This document shows, in pieces, positions 1,132-20,562 of a DNA stretch of 32,935 nucleotides. Positions within the stretch are counted from its first letter, which is position 1. Each line of letters starts with the position of its first letter. The stretch comes from Omnitrophica bacterium RBG_13_46_9 (GTDB lineage: Bacteria; Omnitrophota; Gorgyraeia; JABMRN01; RBG-13-46-9): NCBI GenBank assembly GCA_001804045.1, contig MHFD01000076.1, positions 10,136 to 43,070 of the forward strand. Reading direction: 5' to 3'. The notes under the pieces are model-generated. The model saw nothing but the letters and a program-made list of their open reading frames with translations. It did not search any database and was not told where the DNA came from. The position numbers and the translations under genes are program-made.

Positions 1132-1655
1132 AAGGTTATTATAGCTTCGTCAGCATCTTCCCAAAGTTTCGGAATATCAATATAAAATGAAAATATCAAC
1201 CATAGTCCGCTCATAATCCCATCGTCCAATCGCCTATGAGCTGCAAAACACGGTTTCTCTTATCAACCTGGTAGGTATAGTTATCCTCCAGACTGCTGTC
1301 TAGCAATAGCATTGGCAAGAGAAATGTGCATTAAAAACTAACTTTTGACAAAAAAAGTTTACCATAAAATCAATAAAAAGTCAAATTTAGTCTGGGGACC
1401 ATCCGTATTACATCTGAATACTTTTTGCTCCGCTTAAAACATCGCTACTGAATATAAAAAAATGCCGGCTGTTCCCATAAACAAAGTCTAAGCATAGCTG
1501 CGGTTTCTTGTTTTGTTAGGCTCCGACGTATAGCGCAAGTATCGATCATTCCCTATCCAAATTTCTTGCGCAGCCTTTTGTTTTATGATATATTGAAATT
1601 TGACGCGGTAAAGTCTAACTTATTGTCGAACATCATATGGATATATTATGGTAAG

Positions 1656-3050
1656 ATGAACACTGATAAGGGTAAAATAATTATATTGGGGGCCGGGATT
1701 ACCGGCCTGGTCCTGGCCGAGCGGCTCTCCAGGACGCTTAAGGAGAGGGTAGTAGTGGTCGAAAAGGAAAATTTTTTGGGCGGCCTTGCATCCACCCTTT
1801 CCGACGAAGACCTGTCATTTGATTTGGGTTCCCATAGAATACACAGCGATTTTCCTCCGGAACTCATCGCATATCTCGAGAAGACTATCGGCGTAAAACT
1901 GATAAAAAGATCCAGAAGAGGCGCGTTATACTACAACGGAAAATACCTGCGGTATCCCCCTAATGTATTTAATTTCCTGAAAGTGCTCTCATTCAGAAAC
2001 ACCTTAAGACTCGCCGTCAGCTATCTAAAGAGATTCGACTATTCTCACCGCGACGCGGTAAACTACCAGGAGGCCATGATAAGGGCCGTGGGGAAGAAAA
2101 TATATGTGGCGTTCTACAAGAATTTCGCGCGTAAACTCTGGGGCGTGGACCCAAAAAGGATGTCGATTGACGGGATGAGAAGAAGAAATACCTTTTTGAA
2201 CCTCCAGTCAATAACAAAAAGCGTATGCGGCAAAGACAGGTATTTTTTCTATCCGATACATGGAATAGGCGATATAGCAAAGAAGCTGGAAAGCTCCATC
2301 CTTGAGAATAACGGAAAGATCATAAAAGGCGCGAAGATAAACGGGTTTTCATTAGACAGCGGCAGGGTGACAAGGATCATAATAGAAGGCCTTGACGGCG
2401 CTAAGGACGAGATAGAGAGCTCTATAGTCGCTTCGACCGTTCCCATAGATTCGCTTTTCGGGATCCTTTACGGGCACCACACACCGGCAAGCGGGCTTAC
2501 ATGGAGGGGGTTGAGGATATTGTATATACATATGCGTGAACTTTTGGAAGCCCGGAATGAAACTTTTTACTTTCCCAGGTTAGATATAAAATTCGGCAGG
2601 GTCTCTGATATAGGTAAATTCTCCCCTTACATCAACGCTTTCGCAGGCGGGACCTTATTGACGGTTGAGGTGCCCTGTACGCCGGGAGATAGGCTTTGGG
2701 ACGCGGATGATAAAGAGCTGTTGGACATATGCGTAAGGGACCTGATTAAAACGGGTGTCCTTACGGGTTATCCCGATGTCTCAAAATATTTTTCCATACA
2801 CCTGGAAAAGGCGTATCCTGTATTCGAAATAGGTTGGAGGGAGAAATTTATCGGCATGCATAGCCAGCTGGACAAGATTTTGAATCTTTTCACCATCGGC
2901 AGGAAAGGCTTATTCTTGCATTGCAATATAGACCACTGCATAATCCAGGGATTGGAATTGGCGGATTTTATCCTGCAGGATAAATGGCGCGATAAAGATC
3001 TGTGGAATAAAAAAATGTCGAGGTTCCTGCAATTCTGCGCAAGGGATTAA
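1656..3050 (+). CDS. FAD/NAD(P)-binding oxidoreductase (amine-oxidase / protoporphyrinogen-oxidase-like fold)
   Basis: A Rossmann dinucleotide motif, KIIILGAGITGLVLAE...VVVVEKENFLGGLA, lies right after the ATG at 1656. The TTG at 1566 given by the track adds 30 non-conserved-looking residues, so the ATG at 1656 is preferred. Confidence 0.7.
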   Translation: MNTDKGKIIILGAGITGLVLAERLSRTLKERVVVVEKENFLGGLASTLSDEDLSFDLGSHRIHSDFPPELIAYLEKTIGVKLIKRSRRGALYYNGKYLRYPPNVFNFLKVLSFRNTLRLAVSYLKRFDYSHRDAVNYQEAMIRAVGKKIYVAFYKNFARKLWGVDPKRMSIDGMRRRNTFLNLQSITKSVCGKDRYFFYPIHGIGDIAKKLESSILENNGKIIKGAKINGFSLDSGRVTRIIIEGLDGAKDEIESSIVASTVPIDSLFGILYGHHTPASGLTWRGLRILYIHMRELLEARNETFYFPRLDIKFGRVSDIGKFSPYINAFAGGTLLTVEVPCTPGDRLWDADDKELLDICVRDLIKTGVLTGYPDVSKYFSIHLEKAYPVFEIGWREKFIGMHSQLDKILNLFTIGRKGLFLHCNIDHCIIQGLELADFILQDKWRDKDLWNKKMSRFLQFCARD

Positions 3051-3188
3051 GAGAGCCTAAATGCTTTGCCGGTTTCCCGAGGGGGCATACGGATTTGCTT
3101 CGCTTTTACACGGATTGACGCCGATAAGACGCGGATACCGTGAATAATCTATGTAAAAATAATCGAAATCTTCAAATATAGGAAACCC

Positions 3189-4535
3189 GTGTCTATAGAT
3201 TTTAAAATAAAAGATTTCGCATATCCCGCAGAGATTTTAAAGCTCAGGTCTTTTCTGGAAAAAAGCCAGTGGTTCACGCGGGAGAGGCTGGAATACTATC
3301 AGCTCAAAAGGCTGCGGTTGATGTTAAGCCATGCCTATAAGAACGTCCCGTACTATTCGGAGCTATTCGCCAGATTAAAACTCACCCCATCTGATTTCAG
3401 AAGCATCGAGGACCTGAAGAAGGTCCCGCCGCTTGCCAAAAAAGACTTAAAAGAGAACTTTCATAAGCTGGTGGCAAAAAACGCGAAAAGGTTTAACCCC
3501 ATCCTCTGCAGGACCTCCGGTACCTCGGGACACCCCATAGAGTTCTACCTGGATAAGAATTCCAATATCCTTGAATTCTGCTATTATTGGAGATGCTGGT
3601 CCTGGGCGGGTTACAGACTGGGGATGTCTTTCATGGAATTCTCGTTTCATCATTTTCTGAATACAAGCATAAAAGAAGTCGCCTGCCATTCGTTATTGAC
3701 CAACAGATTGATCATCAATCCCGCGCAAATCTCATGTGAAAGTATCGATAAAATCGTCGGAAACATAAAAAGATATAAGCCCATGTTCGTAAAAGGCACG
3801 CCTTCGGCTATTTACATATTCTCGGTCCTTTTGGAAAAGAAAGGTTGCATGGGGGGCCTACCTTTCAAAGGCGTCTTCACCACCGGGGAGCTGGTCCTTC
3901 CTTATCAAAAAGAAAGAATAGAGAAGGTTCTAAATTGCAAGATACTGGACTCTTATGGGCACATGGAAAGAGCTATAGCTGTCTCTCAATGCCCGCAAGG
4001 GACATATCACATAAACTCCGAATATGGCATTTTGGAAGTAGAGACGGGCGAGAAGCCATCATCCGATAAGGGGATAACCGGTCAGATCATAGGGACTTCC
4101 CTACATAATTTTGCAATGCCGCTTATAAGATATAAAATCGGGGATCTGATAGAACTCGACAGGCGCCATGATAACAGGTGTGTGTGCGGAAGGGGCCTGC
4201 CTGCTATTAAAAAAATATACGGGAGGACCCAGGACGTCATCGTGACTAAAGAAGGGAGATTTATAACGAATATATTCCCTTTTTTCGATCTTTGGAAAAA
4301 CATCCTGTGGTTCCAGCTTGTCCAGGAAGATATCGATAAATTTAAACTAATGCTTGTCAAAGATTCGGGTTTCGAGGATAAAGGCATCGACGAACAGTTA
4401 TACACGCTAAAAAGCATATTGGGTAAGGACGCGAAAATCGAGCTGCGATTTTTTAAATTGGACGAGATAAATATCGAAGGCGGCAATAAGTATAGGCCTA
4501 TTGTCTCGCGGGTAGACGTTGCCAAATTTATATGA
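3189..4535 (+). CDS. CapK / phenylacetate-CoA-ligase-like adenylate-forming enzyme
   Basis: 448-aa ORF with a GTG start. It carries the AMP-binding loop TSGTSGHPIEFY and a later YGHMERA-type core. Its stop overlaps the next start (ATGA at 4532-4535). Confidence 0.7.
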   Translation: MSIDFKIKDFAYPAEILKLRSFLEKSQWFTRERLEYYQLKRLRLMLSHAYKNVPYYSELFARLKLTPSDFRSIEDLKKVPPLAKKDLKENFHKLVAKNAKRFNPILCRTSGTSGHPIEFYLDKNSNILEFCYYWRCWSWAGYRLGMSFMEFSFHHFLNTSIKEVACHSLLTNRLIINPAQISCESIDKIVGNIKRYKPMFVKGTPSAIYIFSVLLEKKGCMGGLPFKGVFTTGELVLPYQKERIEKVLNCKILDSYGHMERAIAVSQCPQGTYHINSEYGILEVETGEKPSSDKGITGQIIGTSLHNFAMPLIRYKIGDLIELDRRHDNRCVCGRGLPAIKKIYGRTQDVIVTKEGRFITNIFPFFDLWKNILWFQLVQEDIDKFKLMLVKDSGFEDKGIDEQLYTLKSILGKDAKIELRFFKLDEINIEGGNKYRPIVSRVDVAKFI

Positions 4536-5581
4536 AACCTCCGGTAGATATTCATAAAACGCCGGATCTTTTGCGAAGATTTGAGCCTCCCGTGCTTATC
4601 GTAAGCACGGTTGTGGGCAGGGGCATGCACAGCATAGGTGAGGCGGTCAGGGAAAGATTTCCGGAAAAATACAAGGTCTGCCATATCCCTATCGAAGAGT
4701 TTTTGCCCGAAAACGCGGTAAACGAAGATCTGAAAAGATATAAAATAATCTCTGACAAATTCACCGCGCTTCTATATCTCATTTATAGTGTCCCTTTTTT
4801 CTATTACAGGAAATATTTAAGGGAAAAATTTTTAAACAGGGCCTCTTTAAAAAGACTAAAAGCGAAGATAGAAGCGTTAAATGCGAAGACGGTCATCTGT
4901 ATAAGCCACCGTCCGGCATTCTGGGTTTCGAGCCTAAAAAGAAAAGAAAAGATGAGATTCAATCTCTGGGGGGTCCTGGGGGAATACGGAAGAAGTCTGG
5001 GATGGAAATATATATTCTGGGAAGAGGTCGATGGTTTTTTGTCTTCTGTGGATAGGCACGAGCTTGATTTTGATTTCCCGCCCCGCTTAGAGTTTATCAA
5101 AACAGATCTTCCTGTCAGACAGAAATTCTATGATGTCTCGGAAACAAAACCCGATAGGAACTCTGTCCTGCTAGTCTGCGGTTTTTGGGGTCAGGGCCCT
5201 TTATATGAGACGGCAAGATCGTTATTACAGAAACTGCCTCAACTTAACATCTATATCATCTGCGGGGAAAACAAAAAACAATACTATAGGCTCAAGGCGT
5301 ATTTTAAAGACAATCCAAATATAAAGGTCTATGCTACCGTGGAAACCCTGGCCCCCTTCATGAAAGAGTGCGCCAGCATAATCACCAAGCCCGGTATCTC
5401 TACGATTTTAGAAGCCTCTGCGGCGCAAAGAAAGATATTCCTGTTGAAAGGCATGCCTGTCGCCGAAGACAACAACGCCAGATACGCGATAGGCAATCTC
5501 AGCGCCGAGTGGTTTGAAATAGAACGCTTTAAAAACTGGTGCATTGACTCCCGGGAAACCGCGGGGTCATGCAAACAATAA
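4532..5581 (+). CDS. GT28-like glycosyltransferase (MGDG-synthase/MurG-type)
   Basis: The N-terminal loop VLIVSTVVGRGMHSIGEAVRE and the C-terminal segment KECASIITKPGISTILEASAAQRKIFLLKGMPVAEDNNARY resemble MGDG-synthase N-terminal and Glyco_tran_28_C regions. The gene is translationally coupled on both sides. Confidence 0.6.
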   Translation: MKPPVDIHKTPDLLRRFEPPVLIVSTVVGRGMHSIGEAVRERFPEKYKVCHIPIEEFLPENAVNEDLKRYKIISDKFTALLYLIYSVPFFYYRKYLREKFLNRASLKRLKAKIEALNAKTVICISHRPAFWVSSLKRKEKMRFNLWGVLGEYGRSLGWKYIFWEEVDGFLSSVDRHELDFDFPPRLEFIKTDLPVRQKFYDVSETKPDRNSVLLVCGFWGQGPLYETARSLLQKLPQLNIYIICGENKKQYYRLKAYFKDNPNIKVYATVETLAPFMKECASIITKPGISTILEASAAQRKIFLLKGMPVAEDNNARYAIGNLSAEWFEIERFKNWCIDSRETAGSCKQ

Positions 5582-6753
5582 ATCCCATGCCTATCCCTTT
5601 AAAATTGTCGGTTTTAAGACTTGTTTATGCCCACCCTCTTTATGCGCGGCATCTTATTGAAAAAAAATTCAGGTTTCGCCGGCGCTTCAGGCGAATAGCA
5701 AAATGTCCGGACAAAGACAACGCTGTCTTGCCGCCTTTAGTGTATAAATTTATCCTGACGTTAAGATGCAACCTGAACTGCAGGATGTGTATGCTCTGGG
5801 GCGAACGCGGCTGGTGTAAAAAAGAACCGCGGGATACGACCTCCGGGGAGCTGGATTGGGACATCGTCAAGCGCATCGTCAGCCAGAGCGGTCATTACCG
5901 CCCTTCTTACATCCTTTCGGGCGGCGAACCGTTGCTCTATTCTCATTTTGAAGATCTGGCGGAATCGTTGGGGAAAACAAGGTCTTTTGCCTATATCTGC
6001 ACAAACGGGCTTTTGCTGGACAGATTTAAAGACACTATCTCCAAAAACCCTTATCTTACTTTTCTGGTATCCCTGGACGGGTTACGGGACGAAAATGACT
6101 CTTTGAGGGGAAAAGGCGTCTACGATAAGGTAGTGGAAAACATAAGTCTTTTAAAGGCCATTAAGAGGCCCCCGTATATAGGGATACAGTTCACGATATA
6201 CCCTGACAATGTGGCTATAATGTATGATTTCTGCAGGGAAATGGCAAGGTTAAAAATCGACTGGATCCTCCTGAACCCATGCTGGTTCATATCAGAGACG
6301 CAGGCAAAGGAATACGAAAGCGTCATGGTGAATGATTTCGGAGTACGGCCCAAAACGCATTCGGGGTACCTGTCCGTTCCCGATTTTGATAAAGAAGAAT
6401 TCGTGAAACAACTCCGGAAAATCAGAGACCGGAGTTGGCCAATGCAGGTCTCGTGTTATCTGAAAGAGCCGGAACATGTTTACACATATGCCGACACCCC
6501 CGAGGTGCCCCCGGGAAACGGGTTTTGTTACAAACAGTGGCTCAGGCTGGATATCGCGCCTGACGGGGAGGTATGTCCCTGCATACAATTTCCGGATCTG
6601 AAGTTCGGCAATTTAAAAGAAAAAAGCGCCTTAGAAATATGGAATTCCCCTTCCTACGAGAGATTCAGGAAAATACTAAGAAAAAGGTGTCTTCCTGTTT
6701 GCAGCAAGTGTGACTGCCTCTATTTATACGACGCCGGCAGAAAATATCTTTGA
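5569..6753 (+). CDS. radical SAM enzyme with C-terminal SPASM domain
   Basis: CxxxCxxC cluster motif LRCNLNCRMCMLWG. C-terminal Cys-rich SPASM pattern: FCYKQW...DGEVCPCIQFPDLKFGNLKEKSALEIW...RCLPVCSKCDC. Overlaps the upstream gene by 13 nt. Confidence 0.85.
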   Translation: MQTINPMPIPLKLSVLRLVYAHPLYARHLIEKKFRFRRRFRRIAKCPDKDNAVLPPLVYKFILTLRCNLNCRMCMLWGERGWCKKEPRDTTSGELDWDIVKRIVSQSGHYRPSYILSGGEPLLYSHFEDLAESLGKTRSFAYICTNGLLLDRFKDTISKNPYLTFLVSLDGLRDENDSLRGKGVYDKVVENISLLKAIKRPPYIGIQFTIYPDNVAIMYDFCREMARLKIDWILLNPCWFISETQAKEYESVMVNDFGVRPKTHSGYLSVPDFDKEEFVKQLRKIRDRSWPMQVSCYLKEPEHVYTYADTPEVPPGNGFCYKQWLRLDIAPDGEVCPCIQFPDLKFGNLKEKSALEIWNSPSYERFRKILRKRCLPVCSKCDCLYLYDAGRKYL

Positions 6754-6786
6754 CGCAAGGGGTTCTTAAATATTTCGGGACTTCCT

Positions 6787-8052
6787 ATGAAGATACTTAT
6801 ATTCTCTTATTACCTGCCTCACAACGACATAGACCAATATACCTTAAGGATACACTTAAAAACGCTCTCTCAGGATAATGAAATAATTTTGGTCTGCGGG
6901 GTGCGGAAGGGAGAAGAAGGCCTGTTAGAGGATACCCGCAAATATTGCGCGAAAGTCTATGCCGTAAAACTGGACCTGCCCAATCTTTCCTGGAGATTAA
7001 AAGACATTTCCGCGGCATTTCTCCTAAGGGGAACGATGAACTGTCTCCGATTTTTGCCTCCCGCCAAGCTCCCCTGGGATAGGTTGCTGATCATGCCTCT
7101 TTTTTTCTTTTTCAGAAAAGAACTGTCCGACAGATTAAAAGAGGCTTTCCAGAGGGAAAAGCCGGATCTGGTCCATTTTCACAAGATAATAACCTCCGCC
7201 CACAGAGAAGACATCCCCCGTCATGTGCCATCGGTCTTTTTTGACGACGACGCAATAAGCAGACTATTCTACGCCAGCATGATCGCTGAAAAATCCTTTC
7301 CGGCCAAGGCGTATTATCTTATAAGATATCTGGGAGCCAAAAAGTGGGAGAAGCTGATACTGCCTTCGTTTAAAAAAGTGGTCATTTTATCGGAAAACGA
7401 CAGAAAATGGCTAACGGGCATCAACCCTTTCCTCTCTAATGTGGAGCCGATACACTATGTGGTGGATACGGAGCTCTTTAAGCCTGCGCCTGTCACGGAA
7501 GATTTTCCTTCGGTAATATTTTTTGGAACGCTTTCTCTTTCCTACAATAGAGAAGCCGCGGAATATTTCGCAGGCGCCATCCTCCCGCTTATCAGAAAGG
7601 AAATCCCGCAATTGAGATTTTACATCGTCGGCCCGGACCCTTCCTTAAAAATAAGAAGCCTGTCCAAAAATCCTTTAAACAAGGTGGTCAGCAAAGTAAC
7701 GGGTCATGCGGAGGACCTTCGCGGCCATATAGCAAAATCCGCTGTCTGCATAGTCCCCCTTAATAAAACCGTAGGCGTTAAATCCAGAATATTGATCGCC
7801 ATGAGCATGGCTAAAACCGTGGTCGCGACAAGCGCGGCCGCGCAAGGGGTGGAGGGTTTAAAAGACGGGGAAAATATAATTATCGCCGATACGCCTTCCC
7901 TATTTGCTGAAAAAGTGGTGTATTTAATAAGAAACCGCGAGGTGAATAACGGGATCGGAGTTAAGGCCCGTGAGCTGATAATCAGGGAATACTGTAGCCG
8001 CAGGTGGAAGGAGCAATGGGAAACCATATACAGGAGTCTTATAAAAACCTAG
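6787..8052 (+). CDS. GT4-family (GT-B) glycosyltransferase
   Basis: 421-aa ORF. The C-terminal half (FFGTLSLSYNREAA, KSRILIAMSMAKTVVATSAAAQGVEGLKDGENIIIADTP) matches the usual GT4 nucleotide-sugar-binding region. Confidence 0.7.
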   Translation: MKILIFSYYLPHNDIDQYTLRIHLKTLSQDNEIILVCGVRKGEEGLLEDTRKYCAKVYAVKLDLPNLSWRLKDISAAFLLRGTMNCLRFLPPAKLPWDRLLIMPLFFFFRKELSDRLKEAFQREKPDLVHFHKIITSAHREDIPRHVPSVFFDDDAISRLFYASMIAEKSFPAKAYYLIRYLGAKKWEKLILPSFKKVVILSENDRKWLTGINPFLSNVEPIHYVVDTELFKPAPVTEDFPSVIFFGTLSLSYNREAAEYFAGAILPLIRKEIPQLRFYIVGPDPSLKIRSLSKNPLNKVVSKVTGHAEDLRGHIAKSAVCIVPLNKTVGVKSRILIAMSMAKTVVATSAAAQGVEGLKDGENIIIADTPSLFAEKVVYLIRNREVNNGIGVKARELIIREYCSRRWKEQWETIYRSLIKT

Positions 8053-8816
8053 GCATCAAGATCGGGCCTATGGTTATGCGCGCTTTAGGATATCTTCCGA
8101 TTACGGAATCCAGTGATGACGACGTATTTATAGTTTCCTATCCGAGGAGCGGAAACAGCTGGCTAGCCCACCTTATCCTGGGTATCTTTTATGACGAAAA
8201 TCCCGAGACTATCCGCTATTCCGCGGTCCGCAACATGATCCCGGATGTGCATCTAAAACGTTGCTACAGGCGTTGCCATAGCCCGATGTTCTTTAAATCA
8301 CACCATCTTCCAAGGCCGGAATATAAACGTGTCTTGTATATTGCGAGAGACGGCCGGGATGTAATGGTGTCATGCTATCATTATTATTCGGCATCTCTCG
8401 GTAAAGATATCGATTTCATGGAGATGATCCGGGGGAAGGGCCTGGATTTCGGCAAATGGCATGACCATGTCGAATCCTGGCTATCAAACCCCTATAAAGC
8501 AAAGATGCTTCTTGTCAAATACGAAGACATGGTGAAAGACACGGTCGGTGAATTAAAAAGACTTTGCATTTTTTTCGGGATAAAAAAGGATATTTCGGTC
8601 CTTGAAACCGCTGCAGAGCGGGCTTCATTCGAAAAGTTACGGCAAAAAGAAATAAAGCACGGCATTGATTACAGGGGTTGGCCGCGGGATAAGATGTTTT
8701 TCCGCAGAGGCAAAGTCGGAAGCTATAAAGATGAGATGCCATGGGACGCGTTGGAGGCGTTTACAGGCGAGGCCGAGGGCACTCTACGAAAACTGGGTTA
8801 TTTATGCGGCGATTGA
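8016..8816 (+). CDS. PAPS-dependent sulfotransferase (Sulfotransfer_1 type)
   Basis: 5'-PSB loop YPRSGNSWLAHL, 3'-PB motif ARDGRDVMVSCYHY, and C-terminal FRRGKVGSYKDEM (the RKGxxGDWKN equivalent). The start is uncertain. The ATG at 8016 follows GGAAGGAG. Alternatives are GTG at 8004 and ATG at 8070. Confidence 0.8.
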   Translation: MGNHIQESYKNLGIKIGPMVMRALGYLPITESSDDDVFIVSYPRSGNSWLAHLILGIFYDENPETIRYSAVRNMIPDVHLKRCYRRCHSPMFFKSHHLPRPEYKRVLYIARDGRDVMVSCYHYYSASLGKDIDFMEMIRGKGLDFGKWHDHVESWLSNPYKAKMLLVKYEDMVKDTVGELKRLCIFFGIKKDISVLETAAERASFEKLRQKEIKHGIDYRGWPRDKMFFRRGKVGSYKDEMPWDALEAFTGEAEGTLRKLGYLCGD

Positions 8817-9865
8817 TCGATAGAACCATATCAAGATTTAGCGCCATTTCCCCGACCGGAAGGGCGGTTTTTCGGAAATCGGGTAAAATGAACGAATTTC
8901 TGGAGAAAAAACCTCTGATGTTAAAACTGGAGACAACTAATATATGTGACGCCCGATGTAATTTTTGCGCATATAAAAAGATGAGGCGCCCCGGACAGAT
9001 AATGTCTCTTGAGCTTTTTGAAAAGACAGCCCGTGATTATGCCGTGATGGGCGGGGGTGCGGTCACGCTGACCCCCTGCGCGGGAGAGCTATTGACAGAC
9101 CCTCATCTCATAGAACGTCTCAGGATATTGACATCATACAAAGAAATCGGGAACATCGGCTTTACCACTAACCTTATAGGGCACATGAGGTTTTCTGACC
9201 GGCAATGGATTGAAATTTTACGCTCCACTTACTATTTACAGGTAAGCTCAGGCGGATTGGACCGCAATACATATCTTAGGATGTTCGGTGTCGATAAAGC
9301 GAAAGATGTGCTTGAAGGCATAGAAAGAATTTTTTTATTGAAGAAAAAGTCCGGCGCTAAAACGATTATCTCGCTTGCATTCAGAACCGATAAGCGGAAC
9401 TATCTAAAGCTTAAACGGAAGGGGCTTTTGGTATTTAATAAAAACGGTGTCTACATATCAAACATAGCGACTTACGGCAATTGGGCAGGCATGCTTGATA
9501 CGAAAGATAAAAAGGGGGCGATCAAAATATCGGAAAGAAGACCCGCAATCCGCTCCGGCCCGTGCGCGGTAATGGCGACAATGATAGGCGTCCTCTCCTC
9601 GGGGACCGTTACGGCGTGCTCCTGCTGTGATTTTGACGGGGCCCTCTTCCCGCTAGGAAACATCGCGGAAAAAGGTTTAGCGGATTTATACGCCGGTTCT
9701 GGCCGAAATGTTCTATTTGAAAAATCGTCAGGCGCCAAAGAACATCTATGTTTTAATTGCTCGCATTACATCGGGTTGGGCTGGATGATACACCGGGGGG
9801 CTCTTGACTTAAAAAACCCTGGTAACATCCCCCTCAAGTTTTACCATTTTTTCAGCGGCGGATGA
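8804..9865 (+). CDS. radical SAM enzyme with Cys-rich (SPASM/twitch-like) C-terminus
   Basis: CxxxCxxC motif TTNICDARCNFCAYKK. C-terminal cysteines: GPCAVM...TACSCCDFDG...HLCFNCSHY. The start is either ATG at 8804 (13-nt overlap with the upstream gene) or ATG at 8888. The track start at 8741 is unlikely. Confidence 0.8.
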   Translation: MRRLIDRTISRFSAISPTGRAVFRKSGKMNEFLEKKPLMLKLETTNICDARCNFCAYKKMRRPGQIMSLELFEKTARDYAVMGGGAVTLTPCAGELLTDPHLIERLRILTSYKEIGNIGFTTNLIGHMRFSDRQWIEILRSTYYLQVSSGGLDRNTYLRMFGVDKAKDVLEGIERIFLLKKKSGAKTIISLAFRTDKRNYLKLKRKGLLVFNKNGVYISNIATYGNWAGMLDTKDKKGAIKISERRPAIRSGPCAVMATMIGVLSSGTVTACSCCDFDGALFPLGNIAEKGLADLYAGSGRNVLFEKSSGAKEHLCFNCSHYIGLGWMIHRGALDLKNPGNIPLKFYHFFSGG

Positions 9866-9912
9866 TGTCGGGAATGGGCACATGAAAACATAATTTTTCG
9901 GAGTCAAATTAA

Positions 9913-11253
9913 ATGAATAACGGAAAGCTTTTGATTTTGAGTCTTGATGGCGCTTCCTGGGAAGGGTTAAAACCTTTTCAGGAACAAGGGAAATTGCCTA
10001 TAATAAGCTCATTGGTGAGTTCCGGCATGTCAGGGCCGCTTTCTTCTATGCTACCGACCTTCACATACCCCAATTGGGGGAGTTTCTGGACAGGACAAAA
10101 CCCCGGCCGACACGGGATATTCGCATTTAAAGAGCTGCGGTCGAGAGGAAGGTTGCACCAACTCGTGGGATGGAACTCACTTAAACTGCCGACCTGGCCC
10201 GAACTAGCGCATAGTCGAGGCTTCAAGATGGTTTCGGTATACGCCCCCCTTACCTACCCTCCGGCAAAACTTAACGGTCTTATCGTAGCGGACCAGCACA
10301 TGAGAAATTCCCGTAATTTCACGCATCCTGCGAGATTGGCCGGAGAACTCCGCTCCAGGTTTGGGAGGGTGTGCCCGCCTAAATCCGAGCAATTTTTCCC
10401 CCCTGGCGGTTTTCGGGACTCAGAATCCATGCGTGAATTTGTCCAAAAGCAAATTCAGAGCGTACTTCAGACCGGGGCAATAGCAGAGTATCTCCTTAAG
10501 AAACCTTCATGGGATATATGCATGGTTCATTTTTTCGCGACGGATCCCCTGCAGCACGCCCTCTGGCATCTTATGGACTCCGGACATCCAGCTTTTAGCG
10601 CAGAGGGACATCAGGAAATAGCGAAGTTCTTTGAGGCGCTGGATACGGCTATCGGGCGATTGATAGAGGAGGTAAAGCCGGGCATGGTCACGTTATTTTC
10701 TGTGCATGGGTTTACAGCTACCCGCGGTATCCTAAATCTATCCCGTTGTCTATTCGATTCTCTCGATAGAAAACCAAGAGGTGTTTTTCTTGATTGTAAA
10801 GCGATATATGTATACAATAAAATACGGGAAAACGGCGCGATTACAGATATTCTTATTCAAGCCCTGCAAAGCTTAAAGGACCCTTCTTCCGGGTCCCATG
10901 TAATACGCAGGGCCTGGCTGGCAAAGGAGTTGTACGGTTTTGTATCGTTCCCGGAGTGGGATGTAATAGTTTTGGAATTCAACGAAGGTTATACCGGCCG
11001 TGACGGTGATTTGAGGGCTCCTCTTTTCAAGATGTGCCGGCCAAATCGGGATTATTTGATCGGTACCCATACCCGGAAAGGTCTCTGGTTATTCTGCGGC
11101 AAGGGAGTACCTGCCCGCGGCGGTCTTCAAACCGGCATTTTAGACCTTCCTCCCACGATTCTAAACTATCTTGGGGTAACTGTCCCGGAATACATGGAAG
11201 GAAGCCCGCTTCCGCTCTTTACTTCTGTTATGTCAGGGCAAAAGACAGAATAA
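9913..11253 (+). CDS. alkaline-phosphatase-superfamily enzyme, nucleotide pyrophosphatase/phosphodiesterase (NPP) type
   Basis: Metal-ligand motif LILSLDGASWEGL. Thr-nucleophile motif PTFTYPNWGSFWTGQNPGRHGI. Later His motifs LFSVHGF and LIGTHTRKG. Confidence 0.75.
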   Translation: MNNGKLLILSLDGASWEGLKPFQEQGKLPIISSLVSSGMSGPLSSMLPTFTYPNWGSFWTGQNPGRHGIFAFKELRSRGRLHQLVGWNSLKLPTWPELAHSRGFKMVSVYAPLTYPPAKLNGLIVADQHMRNSRNFTHPARLAGELRSRFGRVCPPKSEQFFPPGGFRDSESMREFVQKQIQSVLQTGAIAEYLLKKPSWDICMVHFFATDPLQHALWHLMDSGHPAFSAEGHQEIAKFFEALDTAIGRLIEEVKPGMVTLFSVHGFTATRGILNLSRCLFDSLDRKPRGVFLDCKAIYVYNKIRENGAITDILIQALQSLKDPSSGSHVIRRAWLAKELYGFVSFPEWDVIVLEFNEGYTGRDGDLRAPLFKMCRPNRDYLIGTHTRKGLWLFCGKGVPARGGLQTGILDLPPTILNYLGVTVPEYMEGSPLPLFTSVMSGQKTE

Positions 11254-11255
11254 AA

Positions 11256-13463
11256 ATGAAAATCGGACAAAAAGGCGAAAATCTTATCTTCCTTATTTCC
11301 CAGCCGCGGTCGGGCTCAACCATGCTCCAGCGGATCCTGGGAAACCACCATGATATATATACAGTATCAGAGCCATGGCTTATGGTCCCTCCGCTTGTAG
11401 GGCTGACATGTAGATGGTCCAGCCCCGAAGGGAGAGAGGCCCGTTTTGCGCGTGAAAATGTGCGCCGTTTCCTTGAGACATTTCCAGGCGGGCGCGATGA
11501 CTACTTTGAAGGCTTGCGACGCATGTATGTATACCTGTATAACCGTGCCCTTGAAAACTCGGGTAAGCGTTATTTCCTCGATAAAACACCGAGATACGCT
11601 TATTTCATACCCGAACTTTACAGGGTCTTTCCGGAAGCGCGCTACATATTCCTGCTGCGTAATCCGCTGGCAGTTCTATGCTCAATCGTCACAAACTGGA
11701 CGGGTTACGATAAGCGGACGCTTTCGACGGATCACAATGACGACCTGGTAGACGTCCCGCGTCTATTGCTTGAGGGTATGAATATCCTGGATTCAAAAGC
11801 CATAAAAGTCCACTATGAGCGCCTGGTATCCCAGCCGGATGCAGAGATAAGGAGAATCTGTGAAAATATAGGCGTGGGGTTTTACCCGGAAATAATCGAA
11901 TATAACGCGTACGGCCTTCCTCAATGGTGCTTTGGAGACCAATTTGTGTATAAACATACAGCCCCTGATGCGCGGAAATCCGAAAGCTGGAAAGCAGCCG
12001 TCAGAGACCCGCGGATGTGGGGATTCGCCTACAGTTACCTTGGATCTCTGGGTAAAGACCTTGTCGAACACCTCGGGTACTCTTACCGGGAACTGCATGG
12101 AGTCCTTCAGAACTCCCGGCCACATTGGCTCGTGAGAGGGCTGGCAGCTTTAGTGCAATGGCCACGTATACGGTCTTTATACGGTGCCGTAAAATCCGTC
12201 ATTAGAAAGATATCGTCTTTCTTTACCTTATCCTTCATCGCAGTGTTCTTTATGGAACCGTTTTTTTGGTTTCTGGGCCTGCGAGGGAAAAATAGAGACG
12301 TCGGTGCGGGCAGCGCTAAGCGCATATTGGTGGTGCGTCTGGATTCGATCGGAGACTTGGTACTGACAACCCCTTTCCTGAGAGAACTCCGCCGGAATTC
12401 GCCCGGCTCATTTATCACTCTTATAGTCGACCCGCGCGCTTTAAACCTGGTTGATATCTGCCCTTATGTAGATGAGGTGCTGACATACGACTGGAGAGCG
12501 CGGGGCTCCTTTAAAAAATTGAAAAAGTGTTTCCGGGCCGTGAATTTCTCTGCCTTCAACCTCTGGGAAAAAAGATTTGACCTGGCAATAACGCCTCGTT
12601 GGGGAACCGATTATTATCACGGGTCTTTTCTGGCGTATATTAGCGGAGCCAGGGATAGAATCGGCTATTCCGAATATACGAGCGCCGATAAACGCAGGTT
12701 AAACAGGGGGTATGATAATTTTATTACACATTTAATTACGGATGGTCCGCATGAAGCCACTCGGTTTTGCGGCGTTTCCGATTGTGGGGTTCCGTTCCGC
12801 GAAGCCCCGCAATACCGCTGGCACACGGTCAAACATGAGGTAGTACGCAATTTAGACGTGATAAAATTTTTGGGGCGGGAGCCCTCCGGTGACGATCTGG
12901 AATTATGGATAGAAGATTCCGATAAGGTCTTTGCCGGAGAGATCCTAAGGAAATATGAAGTAAAGTCCGGCGAGGCATTGGTCTGTTTCGGCGTGGGGTC
13001 CCAGGAGCCAAAAAAGATATGGCCCATCGGGTATTTTGCCGATTTGGGTGCCTGGCTCATAAAAGAATACGGCGTGCGTATATTGCTTTTGGGGAACGAG
13101 CAGGAAAAGCCGTTGGGAGAAAGGATGGAAAAAGATTTAAAAGAAGGCCCTGTCATCAATATGATAGGAAATACCACCTTACGCCGGGCAGCCGCTTTGA
13201 TAAAACACTGTAAGGCTTACATAGGCAATGACAACGGCTTAATGCACATATCGGCCGCCATGGGAATACCTGTGGTAGAGGCGTCCTGCTGGCCAAAATC
13301 AGGCTCGCTATTTGGCGAGGATAGTCCCTGCCGTTTCGGGCCATGGAAAGTCAAGAATATTGTCGTCAGCTCTCAAAAAATAGCCGGTTCCAAAGACAAT
13401 GGCATATCGCGGGTGACGGTCGAAGAGATGAAAAAGGCGGTAAGGGAGATATTGTCGAGCTGA
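11256..13463 (+). CDS. fusion protein: N-terminal sulfotransferase domain, predicted TM segment, C-terminal GT9 (heptosyltransferase-family) domain
   Basis: The ATG at 11256 lies 2 nt after the upstream stop. The track start at 11034 would overlap the upstream gene by 220 nt. N-terminal PAPS loop FLISQPRSGSTMLQRILGN plus LLRNPLAVLCS. Hydrophobic FFTLSFIAVFFMEPFFWFLGL (about 12210-12282). GT9 signatures ILVVRLDSIGDLVLTTPFLRELR and YIGNDNGLMHISAAMGIPVV. Confidence 0.8.
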   Translation: MKIGQKGENLIFLISQPRSGSTMLQRILGNHHDIYTVSEPWLMVPPLVGLTCRWSSPEGREARFARENVRRFLETFPGGRDDYFEGLRRMYVYLYNRALENSGKRYFLDKTPRYAYFIPELYRVFPEARYIFLLRNPLAVLCSIVTNWTGYDKRTLSTDHNDDLVDVPRLLLEGMNILDSKAIKVHYERLVSQPDAEIRRICENIGVGFYPEIIEYNAYGLPQWCFGDQFVYKHTAPDARKSESWKAAVRDPRMWGFAYSYLGSLGKDLVEHLGYSYRELHGVLQNSRPHWLVRGLAALVQWPRIRSLYGAVKSVIRKISSFFTLSFIAVFFMEPFFWFLGLRGKNRDVGAGSAKRILVVRLDSIGDLVLTTPFLRELRRNSPGSFITLIVDPRALNLVDICPYVDEVLTYDWRARGSFKKLKKCFRAVNFSAFNLWEKRFDLAITPRWGTDYYHGSFLAYISGARDRIGYSEYTSADKRRLNRGYDNFITHLITDGPHEATRFCGVSDCGVPFREAPQYRWHTVKHEVVRNLDVIKFLGREPSGDDLELWIEDSDKVFAGEILRKYEVKSGEALVCFGVGSQEPKKIWPIGYFADLGAWLIKEYGVRILLLGNEQEKPLGERMEKDLKEGPVINMIGNTTLRRAAALIKHCKAYIGNDNGLMHISAAMGIPVVEASCWPKSGSLFGEDSPCRFGPWKVKNIVVSSQKIAGSKDNGISRVTVEEMKKAVREILSS

Positions 13464-13798: not shown

Positions 13799-14215
13799 TT
13801 ATTTATTACGCAATTTCTCAATTGCTTTTCCTGTCGGAAGAAACAATAGTAGCCGCTTGCCCTCTTTCTCTATTTCAAAAAACCCCTTTATGGCAAGAGC
13901 TATTAAATCCTTACGAGCAGTATCATATGCAATACCGTGAGTATTTTTATGGGCTTCTATTGTATAAATATTATCTGGATGTTGAATAGAGTGATAGATT
14001 AAACTCTTTTGTCGTAAATTTAATCCACGAAACTTATCTAATAGTTCGTTTGCTTTTGATATTTCCCTCTGTTTGTTTTTTAAATATTTTCTCAATTCAT
14101 TCAAAGCAAACCTAATAGCAAGTAAATTGTGAAGCTCCACCGCCTTACAGCGGTGGCTTCTCTTTTTACAGGGTTCCGCTCTATCGGTGGAGCGGAACCC
14201 TGAACCGAAAGCCAT
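13799..14215 (-). pseudogene. Fic-family protein, C-terminal (winged-helix-like) fragment; its first 29 codons are encoded by the inserted element
   Basis: From NLLAIRFALNELRKYL onward it reads as the continuation of the upstream Fic ORF. It is in the same frame as 14249-15277, separated by 33 nt. The ATG and the MAFGSGFRSTDRAEPCKKRSHRCKAVELH leader lie inside the 126-nt element. Confidence 0.7.
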
Positions 14216-14254
14216 TCATCCGCGCCCTTACAGGCGTGGCTTTCTGGTTCATGG
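14129..14254 (-). mobile_element. 126-nt non-autonomous IS200/IS605-like element (PATE/MITE), copy 1, inserted in the Fic gene
   Basis: The reverse complement equals 26779-26904 at 118 of 126 positions; only the 8-nt central loop differs. The left flank on the element strand is TTAC. It has two direct subterminal hairpins with tgtaag loops plus a 13-bp perfect central palindrome. Confidence 0.8.
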
Positions 14255-15298: not shown

Positions 15299-15310
15299 AC
15301 AACGAGTTAG

Positions 15311-18021: not shown

Positions 18022-20562
<2,541 letters not shown>

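What the first reader, a model, noticed from the sequence alone, without database searches (positions are those of the whole stretch)
11256..13463. Single polypeptide fusing a sulfotransferase domain to a GT9 heptosyltransferase-like domain through a hydrophobic segment
Seen: the N-terminal third carries the PAPS-loop SQPRSGSTMLQRILGN and LLRNPLAVLCS. A hydrophobic stretch, FFTLSFIAVFFMEPFFWFLGL, follows. The C-terminal half has the two most diagnostic GT9 blocks (ILVVRLDSIGDLVLTTPFLRELR and YIGNDNGLMHISAAMGIPVV). The GT9 part also has an extra Cys-containing insertion (HEATRFCGVSDCGVPFREAPQYRWHTVKHEVV) just before the usual HEVxRNLD region. Established: GT9 enzymes are normally stand-alone cytoplasmic LPS-core heptosyl or related transferases. 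Inference: the fusion would couple addition of a sugar to its sulfation, or to sulfation of the acceptor, at the membrane. I do not know of a characterised example.
Basis: partly seen in the sequence, partly recalled or inferred. Interest (0 to 1): 0.65.

Follow-up and report, generated by a model that had tools for sequence, protein, structure and literature searches.

The report
Sulfotransferase fused to GT9 glycosyltransferase
An uncultured Omnitrophota bacterium encodes a real, very rare single protein joining a sulfate-adding enzyme to a sugar-adding enzyme; it most likely builds a sulfated surface sugar polymer and is a sulfate version of a common methyltransferase-plus-GT9 pairing.

Summary
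Window 11256-13463 (+) is one uninterrupted 735-aa ORF with Sulfotransfer_3 (aa 11-209, E 5.5e-32) and Glyco_transf_9 (E 5.2e-21), and the cofactor-binding and catalytic residues of both are intact.

The fusion is not an artefact. A 53%-identical ortholog (P0002) occurs in two other assemblies with the same upstream gene.

It is rare. Only the query's own cluster matched both halves among 1.84 billion representatives. None of 185,579 species genomes or 241 million metagenome records carried it.

- The "hydrophobic linker" is the conserved N-terminal helical element of this GT9 clade. It is TM-like only in this one protein.
- The Cys-rich insertion is unique to this protein and modelled with low confidence.
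- This GT9 clade is not usually stand-alone. About 37% of evaluable loci have a methyltransferase fused or immediately upstream.

A second lineage (P0124/P0200) independently fuses a different sulfotransferase family to the same clade, inside Wzm/Wzt exporter operons.

Best reading: a cytoplasmic-face bifunctional enzyme that adds a sugar, probably heptose, and sulfates a lipid-linked glycan. It is a new variant of a known kind, of moderate interest.

The parts
11256..13463 (+). Complete ST-GT9 fusion gene (735 aa plus stop)
   Evidence: ORF and translation; Pfam Sulfotransfer_3 plus Glyco_transf_9; ortholog P0002 with the same architecture.
11256..12155 (+). Sulfotransferase module, aa 1-~300 (Pfam core aa 11-209 plus a conserved C-terminal helical subdomain)
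   Evidence: 45-50% identity over aa 1-~300 to stand-alone, TPR-fused or GT2-fused sulfotransferases. AF2 model pLDDT 82.8, pTM 0.83. Foldseek hits are exclusively PAPS sulfotransferases; the best are TPST2/TPST1 and CurM/OLS ST.
11298..11321 (+). 5'-phosphosulfate-binding loop S15-Q-P-R-S-G-S-T22
   Evidence: S15, Q16, P17, R18, G20, S21 and T22 are invariant in 27 clade members. The loop aligns to the SSPRSGSTL loop of CurM ST.
11370..11372 (+). Glu39 (S-E-P-W), candidate catalytic base
   Evidence: Invariant E39-P40-W41. It aligns with the Glu of the 'PPE' motif of CurM ST. Its role as catalytic base is from my own recollection of the CurM ST literature, not tested here.
11658..11684 (+). 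3'-phosphate-binding motif R135-N-P-L-A-V-L-C-S143
   Evidence: R135, N136, P137 and S143 are invariant. The motif aligns to RHPYSVIES of CurM ST.
12159..12284 (+).
   Evidence: Homologous to the N-termini of stand-alone clade members, consensus LTSPxxAxxxGEPxFWLLGxR. It is confident (pLDDT 77-96) when modelled with the GT9 domain, but below 50 when modelled with the ST module alone. Hydropathy is an outlier only in this protein.
12315..13460 (+). GT9 GT-B catalytic domain, aa 354-735
   Evidence: Most 10-residue blocks have mean pLDDT above 90, except the insertion. Foldseek: 3tov (GT9) E 3.8e-22, TM-target 0.82; WaaF 1psw; WaaC 2h1h. D367, K587 and D659 align with WaaC D13, K192 and D261.
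12744..12821 (+). Lineage-specific 26-aa insertion (GPHEATRFCGVSDCGVPFREAPQYRW; Cys505, Cys510)
   Evidence: Absent from P0002 and from all relatives in the alignments examined (14 sequences; 45 GT9 sequences; pairwise with P0002). pLDDT below 50. The 87-nt stretch around it (12746-12832) is 61% GC against 46% in the flanks, and no donor sequence was found in the window or the loci.
13368..13403 (+). Site of the lost clade-wide C-terminal Cys/His cluster (consensus PC...C...HC)
   Evidence: The three Cys and one His of this C-terminal stretch are conserved in 38-43 of 43 stand-alone members and kept in P0002. In the window protein they are deleted or substituted (VVSSQK--IAGSKDNGIS). No alternative frame restores them.
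9913..11253 (+). Translationally coupled upstream partner: cytoplasmic Phosphodiest/NPP-like alkaline-phosphatase-superfamily protein
   Evidence: Pfam PF01663, E 1.5e-27. The same gene (61% identity) lies directly upstream of, and overlaps, the P0002 fusion gene. A 34%-identical homolog lies 1.8 kb upstream of a stand-alone GT9 in L038.
1566..9865 (+). Rest of the co-directional glycan-type cluster. FAD oxidoreductase (UGM/PRK07208-like) 1566-3050; PaaK/F390-synthetase-like adenylating enzyme 3189-4535; GT28_C-like GT 4532-5581; rSAM/SPASM 5569-6753; GT4 6787-8052; stand-alone Sulfotransfer_1 8004-8816; rSAM/SPASM 8741-9865
   Evidence: Pfam and NCBIfam. Genes are tightly packed or overlapping.

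Best explanation
The gene encodes a genuine bifunctional enzyme of a glycan (exopolysaccharide or O-antigen-like) pathway in a Candidatus Omnitrophota bacterium. Both modules face the cytoplasm.

The C-terminal GT9 GT-B module transfers a sugar from a nucleotide sugar onto a lipid-linked glycan at the inner face of the membrane. The sugar is most likely a heptose from ADP-heptose. The clade's N-terminal amphipathic/hydrophobic helical hairpin holds the enzyme at the membrane.

The N-terminal PAPS-dependent sulfotransferase module sulfates the same glycan, probably the residue just added or its neighbour. Evolutionarily this is the 'sulfo' variant of a widespread pairing, in which this GT9 clade works with a small-group transferase (usually a SAM methyltransferase) encoded immediately upstream or fused N-terminally.

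Shown: the ORF, the two intact modules, the orthology and synteny, the rarity, the clade-wide pairing, and the independent second ST-GT9 lineage in Wzm/Wzt operons.

Inferred: the donor sugar, the acceptor, the order of the reactions, the membrane association and the cellular destination of the product.
For: - Intact ORF and domains.
- The ST fold and the PAPS motifs are invariant.
- The GT9 fold and the catalytic D367/K587/D659 are conserved.
- Ortholog P0002/P0121 comes from other assemblies and keeps the same upstream gene.
- Partner census: of 123 evaluable GT9-clade loci, 35 have a methyltransferase immediately upstream and 9 have one fused. The two nearest stand-alone relatives have an overlapping MT-to-GT9 gene pair, and one is followed by an overlapping SIS+cytidylyltransferase (GmhA/HldE-like) gene.
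- Clade neighbourhoods among 161 loci: GT2 in 70, GT4 in 51, ABC ATPase with Wzt_C in 41, SIS_2+CTP_transf_like in 28, Wzm in 24.
- An independent Sulfotransfer_1-GT9 fusion lineage (P0124/P0200) lies in Wzm-Wzt-...-ST-GT9-GT28-like operons that carry an additional stand-alone sulfotransferase.
- The ST clade is itself fused to GT2 modules elsewhere.
- The window cluster holds GT4, a GT28-like GT, a second sulfotransferase and EPS-type accessory genes.
- PF13469 includes the carbohydrate sulfotransferase NodH (PMC11625862), and the best NCBIfam match of the N-terminal module is NoeE-like.
Against: - There is no biochemical evidence at all.
- No Wzm/Wzt, ADP-heptose-pathway or PAPS-synthesis genes lie in the 32.9-kb window.
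- The window protein has lost a Cys/His cluster conserved in 38-43 of 43 relatives and carries a disordered insertion. Its GT9 half diverges much faster than its ST half (44% against 68% identity to the ortholog). GT activity could therefore be impaired.
- The closest solved ST structures are protein-tyrosine and polyketide sulfotransferases, not carbohydrate ones.
- Two rSAM/SPASM genes in the cluster are more typical of peptide maturation.
- The inter-domain geometry could not be assessed.
Confidence: 0.6

Rival explanations
1. The protein is functionally only a sulfotransferase. Its GT9 half is a decaying or non-catalytic module kept as a substrate-binding or membrane-docking scaffold.
For: Most of the clade-wide Cys/His positions are lost: only C678 remains, H679 is Trp, and the three C-terminal Cys and the His are deleted or substituted. 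There is a unique low-confidence 26-aa insertion. The GT9 half is 44% identical to the ortholog, against 68% for the ST half. The GT9 halves of the two fusions are not even direct sisters in an NJ tree.
Against: All the positions equivalent to WaaC D13, K192 and D261, and the GNDxGxxH block, are intact and clade-typical. The 415-aa reading frame is fully open. The domain is modelled with pLDDT above 90 in most blocks. The ortholog keeps the three C-terminal Cys and the His.
Confidence: 0.15
2. It is a classical LPS inner-core heptosyltransferase (WaaC/WaaF/WaaQ-type) that has acquired a sulfotransferase, producing a sulfated LPS core.
For: The best-scoring NCBIfam families for the C-terminal half are heptosyltransferases I, II and III. 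The nearest solved structures are WaaF and WaaC. Omnitrophota are generally regarded as diderm (my own knowledge). Sulfated LPS is known in Sinorhizobium (LpsS; my own knowledge).
Against: All equivalog scores are far below their cut-offs, for example 81 against 185 bits. The clade is ~425 aa, with an extra N-terminal helical element and a Cys/His cluster. It lies in Wzm/Wzt, GT2 and GT4 polymer loci rather than waa clusters. By record title, relatives occur in Heliomicrobium, Bifidobacteriaceae, Chloroflexota and an archaeon MAG. No lpx, kds or waa genes are nearby.
Confidence: 0.1
3. It modifies a protein or a ribosomal peptide. This would combine TPST/RaxST-like tyrosine O-sulfation with TibC/Aah-like O-heptosylation, and the two rSAM/SPASM enzymes would mature the same peptide.
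For: TPST1 and TPST2 are the top structural matches for the ST module and are among its sequence matches, which are led by CurM ST. GT9 includes protein heptosyltransferases, and TibC is a weak match. Two rSAM/SPASM genes are in the cluster.
Against: TM-scores to TPST are only 0.55-0.66 at 17-20% identity. TibC/Aah is a very weak match (E 0.0011; TM-target ~0.48). The ST clade is fused to GT2 modules, and the GT9 clade sits in polysaccharide loci. rSAM genes also flank the nearest stand-alone GT9 within an obvious glycan locus. No precursor-peptide gene was identified, but this was not searched systematically.
Confidence: 0.08
4. The fusion is an assembly chimera or a sequencing frameshift that joins two adjacent genes.
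For: The source is a metagenome-derived contig. ST and GT9 genes could plausibly be neighbours, as MT and GT9 genes are.
Against: The same architecture is seen in P0002 (NCBI assembly) and P0121 (Logan assembly), at 53% identity and with conserved synteny. The alternative frames across the junction contain stop codons. A second lineage (P0124/P0200) shows the same kind of fusion on three further contigs.
Confidence: 0.02

Closest known systems
LPS heptosyltransferases WaaC/WaaF (GT9) and the uncharacterised Veillonella GT9 structure 3tov
   Same: GT-B fold (Foldseek TM-target 0.78-0.82). The N-terminal 'R-L-x-x-I-G-D' catalytic Asp, the K-x-W-P Lys and the G-N-D-x-G-x-x-H block are all conserved.
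   Different: It is about 100 aa longer, with an N-terminal helical hairpin and, clade-wide, a C-terminal Cys/His cluster. It scores below all equivalog cut-offs. It lies in Wzm/Wzt-type polymer loci rather than waa loci, and it is fused to a sulfotransferase.
Methyltransferase-GT9 fusions and overlapping MT-to-GT9 gene pairs of the same clade (e.g. P0005, P0048, P0090, P0122; loci L162, L164, L167, L168), all uncharacterised
   Same: Same GT9 clade (38-51% identity) and same junction position N-terminal of the helical element. The small-group transferase is placed upstream.
   Different: The partner uses SAM (methyl) rather than PAPS (sulfate). These fusions are far more common: 9 fused plus 35 adjacent among 123 loci, against one lineage.
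Sulfotransfer_1-GT9 fusions P0124/P0200 (uncharacterised, high-GC metagenome contigs L169-L171)
   Same: Sulfotransferase N-terminal, same GT9 clade C-terminal, same junction. Glycan operons with an extra stand-alone sulfotransferase and a GT28_C-like GT.
   Different: A different sulfotransferase family (PF00685, not PF13469), not alignable beyond the P-loop. The Cys/His cluster is intact. They are embedded directly after Wzm/Wzt, which the window cluster lacks.
Carbohydrate sulfotransferases NodH/NoeE (Nod-factor sulfation) and cyanobacterial EPS sulfotransferases (synechan XssA/XssE)
   Same: PAPS-type sulfotransferases acting on glycans. PF13469 is the NodH family (PMC11625862). NoeE is the best NCBIfam hit. 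[quoted passage not shown]
   Different: NoeE scores 86.5 bits against a cut-off of 500. Those enzymes are stand-alone, and none is fused to a GT9.
Multi-module enzymes of ABC-transporter-dependent O-polysaccharide assembly (WbdD kinase-methyltransferase terminator; K. pneumoniae O7 ORF6 methyltransferase-kinase plus two GT modules; WbbB)
   Same: They combine glycosyltransferase and small-group-modifying modules in one polypeptide acting on a lipid-linked glycan at the cytoplasmic face. The modification can serve as an export signal read by the Wzt CBM (PMC3482155, PMC11231755). Relatives of the target lie next to Wzt genes carrying Wzt_C.
   Different: There is no long coiled-coil ruler (secondary structure). 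No sequence homology was seen. No Wzm/Wzt lies in this window. A sulfate terminator has not been described in the papers retrieved in my searches.

Membership tests
Glycosyltransferase family 9 (Pfam PF01075 / CAZy GT9) | Significant match to the family profile | tested here: met
   PF01075 E 5.2e-21, 75.5 bits against GA 22.
Glycosyltransferase family 9 (Pfam PF01075 / CAZy GT9) | GT-B fold superposable on WaaC/WaaF | tested here: met
   AF2 model with pLDDT above 90 in most blocks. Foldseek: 3tov E 3.8e-22, TM-target 0.82; 1psw 0.78; 2h1h 0.80.
Glycosyltransferase family 9 (Pfam PF01075 / CAZy GT9) | Catalytic and donor-binding residues equivalent to WaaC D13, K192 and D261 | tested here: met
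   D367, K587 and D659 align to them. The Asp positions are conserved in 44-45 of 45 clade members, and position 587 is K or R in all 45. The residue roles in WaaC are from my own knowledge.
Glycosyltransferase family 9 (Pfam PF01075 / CAZy GT9) | ADP-heptose as donor | not testable with these tools
   Only indirect: SIS_2+CTP_transf_like (GmhA/HldE-like) genes lie next to clade members in 28 of 161 loci. None is in this window.
LPS core heptosyltransferases WaaC/WaaF/WaaQ (NCBIfam equivalogs) | Score at or above the equivalog cut-off | tested here: not met
   TIGR02193 81.2 against 185.3; TIGR02195 80.1 against 134.6; TIGR02201 76.7 against 170.2; PRK10916 61.6 against 569.
PAPS-dependent sulfotransferases (Pfam Sulfotransfer_3, PF13469) | Significant match to the family profile | tested here: met
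   PF13469 E 5.5e-32, 112.2 bits against GA 27; also PF00685 at 31.9 bits.
PAPS-dependent sulfotransferases (Pfam Sulfotransfer_3, PF13469) | 5'-PSB loop (PxxGS/TT-type) and 3'-PB motif (R...S) | tested here: met
   S15-Q-P-R-S-G-S-T22 and R135-N-P...S143. All positions except residue 19 (S/A) are invariant in 27 clade members, and both motifs align to those of CurM ST.
PAPS-dependent sulfotransferases (Pfam Sulfotransfer_3, PF13469) | Sulfotransferase alpha/beta fold | tested here: met
   Model pLDDT 82.8, pTM 0.83. All 50 listed Foldseek PDB matches are sulfotransferases.
PAPS-dependent sulfotransferases (Pfam Sulfotransfer_3, PF13469) | Sulfotransfer activity and acceptor identity | not testable with these tools
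   Needs an enzyme assay.
NoeE / NodH Nod-factor sulfotransferases | Equivalog-level similarity | tested here: not met
   NF052394 NoeE scores 86.5 bits against a cut-off of 500, and only aa 10-148 match.
Tyrosylprotein sulfotransferases (TPST/RaxST) | Close structural or sequence similarity, including the peptide-binding groove | tested here: inconclusive
   They are the best PDB fold matches, but TM-scores are 0.55-0.66 at 17-20% identity. phmmer E-values are ~1e-7. Groove residues were not analysed.
O-polysaccharide chain terminators of ABC-transporter pathways (WbdD-type) | Coiled-coil molecular ruler in the terminator protein (PMC11231755) | tested here: not met
   The predicted secondary structure shows only short helices of 24 residues or fewer and no extended coiled coil.
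O-polysaccharide chain terminators of ABC-transporter pathways (WbdD-type) | Genetic linkage to Wzm/Wzt, with a CBM on Wzt | tested here: not met
   No ABC2_membrane, ABC_tran or Wzt_C genes in the window. The feature is met for the parallel fusions P0048, P0090, P0124 and P0200. The rest of the 50.8-kb source contig was not available.
Bitopic membrane protein (single transmembrane helix between the domains) | A hydrophobic helix of about 20 residues, conserved in orthologs | tested here: not met
   The Kyte-Doolittle maximum is 1.84 here, but 0.96 in the ortholog and 0.10-1.54 in 41 relatives. The modelled helix is 15 residues (326-340), with the conserved E334-P335 in its middle. No dedicated TM predictor was available.

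The most novel reading that the evidence does not exclude
The ST-GT9 fusions, here and independently in P0124/P0200, are capping enzymes. They would add a terminal sugar and sulfate it, creating a sulfated non-reducing-end cap that stops polymerisation and is the export signal read by the Wzt carbohydrate-binding module. This would be a new chain-termination chemistry (sulfate, alongside methyl, methyl-phosphate and Kdo), and evidence for sulfated surface glycans in Omnitrophota and other uncultured phyla.
Probability: 0.15. Interest if true: 0.65.

Novelty: new variant of a known kind. Interest (0 to 1): 0.42.

Why it matters
Outside cyanobacteria and rhizobia, bacterial sulfated glycans are considered rare, and the enzymes that make them are poorly mapped.

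This fusion, together with the independent Sulfotransfer_1-GT9 lineage, is Rosetta-stone evidence linking sulfation to a large, widespread and uncharacterised GT9 clade. That clade is about 425 aa, has an N-terminal amphipathic hairpin and a Cys/His cluster, and usually pairs with a methyltransferase in Wzm/Wzt glycan loci.

The fusion gives a compact, clonable two-activity enzyme. It could be used to test what this clade transfers, whether sulfation follows glycosylation on the same residue, and whether Omnitrophota nanobacteria display sulfated surface polymers. Such an enzyme could also be useful for chemo-enzymatic synthesis of sulfated sugars.

Tried and rejected
(1) Full-length structure prediction. 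MAFFT placed the ST homologues onto the GT9 columns, both with full-length sequences (A2) and with domain-trimmed ones (A3). I used the second job for the ST module alone. Inter-domain geometry and facing of the active sites could not be assessed, because coordinates and PAE are not exposed and only two fusion sequences exist for covariation.

(2) The metagenome scan with the P0001+P0002 profile chose over-specific patterns and found nothing. It was repeated with A1.

(3) L066, an Omnitrophota MAG whose match began at query residue 270, was checked as a possible third fusion. Its upstream genes are a GT2-methyltransferase and a methyltransferase, not a sulfotransferase.

(4) A hidden frameshift that might restore the C-terminal Cys/His motif or split the fusion was looked for. 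None exists.

(5) Origin of the insertion: no donor sequence or flanking repeat was found in the window or in 161 loci. A local duplication (HEATRF against HEVVRN) remains only a weak impression.

(6) tblastn of all window cluster genes against the GT9 loci gave almost no shared neighbours, apart from AlkP-like in L001 and L038, PaaK-like in L028 and L097, and Sulfotransfer_1 in L097.

(7) Promoter and terminator scans were not clearly above the shuffled controls (promoter-like 28 against 22.4±4.6; terminator-like 24 against 15.8±4.5) and were uninformative.

(8) Literature searches for an ST-GT9 or sulfotransferase-heptosyltransferase fusion returned nothing relevant.

(9) A Biopython NJ bootstrap timed out and was replaced by a numpy implementation.


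Full report
**Observation.** The region holds a single long frame (11034..13463). The upstream gene stops at 11253, and an ATG follows 2 nt later at 11256. Pfam finds Sulfotransfer_3 at aa 11-209 (E 5.5e-32, 112 bits) and Glyco_transf_9 at aa 574-708 (E 5.2e-21, 75.5 bits). Both are far above the gathering thresholds. The other two frames contain stop codons at the junction, at the insertion and at the C-terminus.

**Setting.** The window is the replication-origin region of a bacterial chromosome. It carries dnaA, dnaN, gyrB and gyrA on the minus strand and rpmH, rnpA, yidD, yidC, parA and parB on the plus strand. DnaA-box clusters lie beside dnaA, and a cumulative GC-skew minimum lies near 24 kb. 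All named GyrB relatives, at 67-83% identity, are Candidatus Omnitrophota.

The target is the last gene of a tightly packed plus-strand cluster (1566-13463). The cluster comprises:
- a UGM/PRK07208-like FAD oxidoreductase;
- a PaaK/F390-synthetase-like adenylating enzyme;
- a GT28_C-like GT;
- two radical-SAM/SPASM proteins;
- a GT4 resembling PEP-CTERM/XrtA-system GTs;
- a stand-alone Sulfotransfer_1 protein;
- a cytoplasmic Phosphodiest/NPP-like protein.

No Wzm/Wzt, heptose-pathway or PAPS-synthesis genes lie in the window.

**Is the fusion real, and how rare is it?** Among 5.8 billion clustered proteins, the only other entry with both domains among the 120 listed hits is P0002 (716 aa, 53% identity, full coverage). 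P0002 comes from an NCBI assembly and has a near-identical copy in an independent Logan assembly. On its contig, the same NPP-like gene (61% identity) lies immediately upstream and overlaps the fusion gene.

An exhaustive phmmer search of 1.84 billion 50%-identity representatives found nothing matching both halves outside the query's own cluster. The next best score, 323 bits, is a single-domain hit. Scans of 185,579 species-representative genomes and of 241 million metagenome records returned 86 and 237 relatives respectively. All of them cover only the GT9 half. The fusion is genuine, orthologously conserved and very rare in this exact form.

**Anatomy.** Stand-alone relatives define two modules that abut without a linker. 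The ST module is aa 1-~300, at 45-50% identity to sulfotransferases that elsewhere stand alone or are fused to TPR repeats or GT2 domains. The GT9 module starts at ~aa 311.

AF2 models it as two helices (302-323 and 326-340), with pLDDT 77-96 when the GT9 domain is present. With the ST module alone the same region scores below 50. It therefore belongs to the GT9 module.

Its hydropathy is TM-like only in this protein. The maximum 19-aa Kyte-Doolittle score is 1.84 here, 0.96 in P0002, and 0.10-1.54 (mean 0.88) in 41 relatives. The conserved Glu-Pro pair sits in the middle of a 15-residue helix. A single membrane-spanning helix between the two modules would also separate one of them from its cytoplasmic nucleotide donor. 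I therefore read the element as a monotopic or interfacial hairpin, or a domain-packing element. This is inference.

**Catalytic integrity.** In the ST module, several elements are invariant across 27 clade members and align with the corresponding motifs of CurM ST:
- the 5'-PSB loop (S15-Q-P-R-x-G-S-T22);
- E39-P-W;
- K110-T-P-R-Y;
- the 3'-PB motif (R135-N-P...S143).

The ST-only model is confident (pLDDT 82.8, pTM 0.83). It matches only PAPS sulfotransferases in the PDB, with TPST1/2 and CurM/OLS ST first.

The GT9 half is modelled with pLDDT above 90 in most blocks. It superposes best on the GT9 structures 3tov, WaaF and WaaC. D367, K587 and D659 align with WaaC D13, K192 and D261, and these positions are clade-conserved.

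Two peculiarities are specific to the window protein. The first is the 26-aa Cys-containing insertion. It is absent from P0002 and from all aligned relatives, has pLDDT below 50, is GC-rich and has no detectable donor. The second is the near-complete loss of a Cys/His cluster that is otherwise conserved in 34-43 of 43 stand-alone members. That cluster consists of SCHP followed by PC...C...HC. Only C678 of SCHP remains here, while P0002 keeps the PC...C...HC part.

The GT9 half also diverges faster than the ST half, at 44% against 68% identity between the two orthologs. In an NJ tree, the two GT9 halves are not direct sisters, because P0002 groups first with the stand-alone P0006.

**What the GT9 clade does.** NCBIfam scores for the WaaC, WaaF, WaaQ and TibC equivalogs are all far below their cut-offs. 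De novo clustering of the genes within 4 kb of clade members in 161 loci, followed by Pfam annotation, gave these counts:

| Neighbour type | Loci (of 161) |
|---|---|
| GT2 | 70 |
| GT4 | 51 |
| ABC ATPase with Wzt_C | 41 |
| SIS_2 + cytidylyltransferase (GmhA/HldE-like) | 28 |
| Methyltransferases | 28 + 12 |
| Wzm-type permease | 24 |
| Wzx-like flippase (assigned by eye) | 16 |
| Pyruvyl transferase | 14 |

These are polymer-assembly loci, mainly of the ABC-transporter-dependent type. The frequent ADP-heptose-pathway-like neighbour supports a heptosyl donor.

In a census of the position immediately upstream, 35 of 123 evaluable loci have a methyltransferase gene there and 9 have one fused. 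The two closest stand-alone relatives show overlapping MT-to-GT9 gene pairs. One is followed by an overlapping GmhA/HldE-like gene. The other is flanked by B12-radical-SAM enzymes, a GT4 and a GT2-rSAM fusion. The MT-GT9 fusions P0048 and P0090 lie beside Wzt or Wzm genes. P0048 also lies next to a bifunctional ATP-sulfurylase/APS kinase and two sulfatases. In the window, the sulfotransferase therefore occupies the slot normally held by a methyltransferase.

**A second, independent ST-GT9 lineage.** I scanned the long representatives from the exhaustive search with Pfam. P0124 (700 aa) and P0200 (701 aa) turned out to be Sulfotransfer_1 (PF00685) plus Glyco_transf_9. They are 47% identical to each other. 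Their GT9 half is 38% identical to the window's aa 303-733 and has the Cys/His cluster intact. Their N-terminal domain does not align with the window's ST module beyond the P-loop.

Their contigs are 68-70% GC. The gene order is GT4(s), Wzm, Wzt (Wzt_C faint in two of the three contigs), an unknown protein, a stand-alone Gal-3-O-sulfotransferase-like gene (in two of the three contigs), the ST-GT9 fusion, then further genes. In two contigs a GT28_C-like GT follows the fusion directly. Downstream lie CMP-sugar and NeuB-type genes, methyltransferases and, in one contig, GT2 genes.

Two unrelated sulfotransferase families fused at the same site to the same GT9 clade is strong Rosetta-stone evidence that sulfation and this glycosyl transfer act on one substrate. 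It also means that the architecture class 'ST+GT9' is not unique to the window. Only the Sulfotransfer_3 version is.

**Mechanism (best-supported).** The protein is a cytoplasmic-face, membrane-associated bifunctional enzyme. Its GT9 module adds a sugar, probably heptose, to a lipid-linked glycan. Its ST module sulfates that glycan using PAPS.

Precedents for combining GT and small-group-modifying modules in one polypeptide exist in ABC-transporter-dependent O-polysaccharide assembly. Examples are WbdD and K. pneumoniae O7 ORF6 (PMC3482155, PMC11231755). There, terminal modifications stop polymerisation and are read by the Wzt CBM. The target lacks the coiled-coil ruler typical of those terminators, and no Wzm/Wzt lies in the window. 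A capping role is therefore only the most novel reading not excluded, at about 15%.

**Rivals.**
- An ST-only protein with a decaying GT9 scaffold (about 0.15).
- A true LPS-core heptosyltransferase with added sulfation (about 0.10).
- Peptide or protein modification (about 0.08).
- Artefact (about 0.02).

**Literature.** PF13469 is the family of the carbohydrate sulfotransferase NodH (PMC11625862). Sulfotransferases in bacterial EPS clusters have been functionally tied mainly to cyanobacterial synechan. [quoted passage not shown] No paper describing an ST-GT9 or ST-heptosyltransferase fusion was found.

**Limits.**
- There is no biochemistry.
- Only the best 150 hits of the exhaustive search could be inspected, so more distant ST-GT9 fusions may exist.
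- Organism labels of MAG loci come from record titles.
- Inter-domain geometry, TM topology and metal binding were not testable.
- The remaining ~18 kb of the source contig was not available.

**Verdict.** The finding is a real and correctly observed fusion, but its interpretation needed correction. The 'linker' is a clade element. The insertion is idiosyncratic. The clade is a habitual fusion partner in polymer loci, not an LPS-core enzyme. It is a new variant of a known kind, namely modular glycan-assembly enzymes. It is moderately interesting as an entry point to a large uncharacterised GT9 clade and to sulfated glycans in uncultured bacteria.

Noticed in passing
window 22300-25150: Likely oriC. 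DnaA-box-like 9-mers (1 mismatch or fewer) cluster at 23721-23788 (upstream of dnaA) and 22303-22322 (upstream of dnaN). The cumulative GC-skew minimum lies near 24 kb. rpmH (24353-24493), rnpA (24539-24889), yidD (24920-25141) and yidC follow.
   Followed up: partly
window 9913-11253 (+); L001 2-505; L038 6890-8236: A cytoplasmic Phosphodiest/NPP-like alkaline-phosphatase-superfamily protein with a Thr-nucleophile-type motif (PTFTYPNW; the nucleophile assignment is my own reading). It is translationally coupled to the fusion gene in both fusion-bearing organisms, and a homolog lies 1.8 kb upstream of a stand-alone GT9 in a Chloroflexota MAG. Its role in a glycan or sulfation pathway is unexplained.
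   Followed up: partly
GT9 clade, equivalent to window aa 678-716 (nt 13287-13403): The ~425-aa GT9 clade has a near-universal Cys/His cluster: C-H in 'SCHP', then PC...C...HC, in 34-43 of 43 members. This suggests a structural metal site, loosely reminiscent of the TibC iron-finger. The window protein has lost it but has extra Cys at 505, 510 and 692.
   Followed up: partly
window 5569-6753 and 8741-9865 (+); L167 973-3258, 5424-6959, 8656-10698: Radical-SAM enzymes recur in these glycan loci. The window has two rSAM/SPASM proteins. Around the closest stand-alone GT9 relative there are B12-binding rSAM enzymes, one of them fused to a methyltransferase domain, and a GT2-rSAM fusion. This suggests radical chemistry on sugars rather than peptide maturation.
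   Followed up: no
L162 2572-10094: A methyltransferase-GT9 fusion (P0048) lies in one operon-like run with a bifunctional ATP-sulfurylase/APS kinase (PAPS synthesis) and a Wzt carrying Wzt_C, and two sulfatases lie downstream. This is a second hint linking the GT9 clade to sulfur metabolism.
   Followed up: no
window 13799-15385 (-): A Fic/DOC-domain protein (14249-15277) plus an unannotatable 138-aa ORF (13799-14215) sit beside tRNA-Glu(TTC) (15310-15385). The stretch is low-GC (0.39-0.42) and lies between the glycan cluster and gyrA, so it may be a small inserted module.
   Followed up: no
window 9913-13463 vs rest: The NPP-like plus fusion gene pair is the most GC-rich part of the window (0.494, against 0.434 overall and 0.454 for the upstream cluster). 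This is compatible with acquisition as a two-gene module. The ortholog contig L001 is 0.431 GC.
   Followed up: partly
window 18022-20502 (-) and its homologues: Many closely related Omnitrophota GyrB proteins are ~1215-1360 aa and carry intein domains (PF14890, PF14528). The window's GyrB is intein-free.
   Followed up: no
window 3189-4535 (+); L028 5062-6315; L097 3083-3997: The PaaK/F390-synthetase-like adenylating enzyme of the cluster also occurs near stand-alone GT9-clade genes in an Eisenbacteria MAG and in a metagenome contig. The latter also has a Sulfotransfer_1 gene 33% identical to the window's 8004-8816.
   Followed up: no
L005, L031, L041 (GTDB loci): GT9-clade genes occur in records titled archaeon, Heliomicrobium sp. 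and Bifidobacteriaceae, as well as in Chloroflexota. These are lineages not expected to make LPS, which argues against a dedicated LPS-core role, though MAG contamination was not checked.
   Followed up: no
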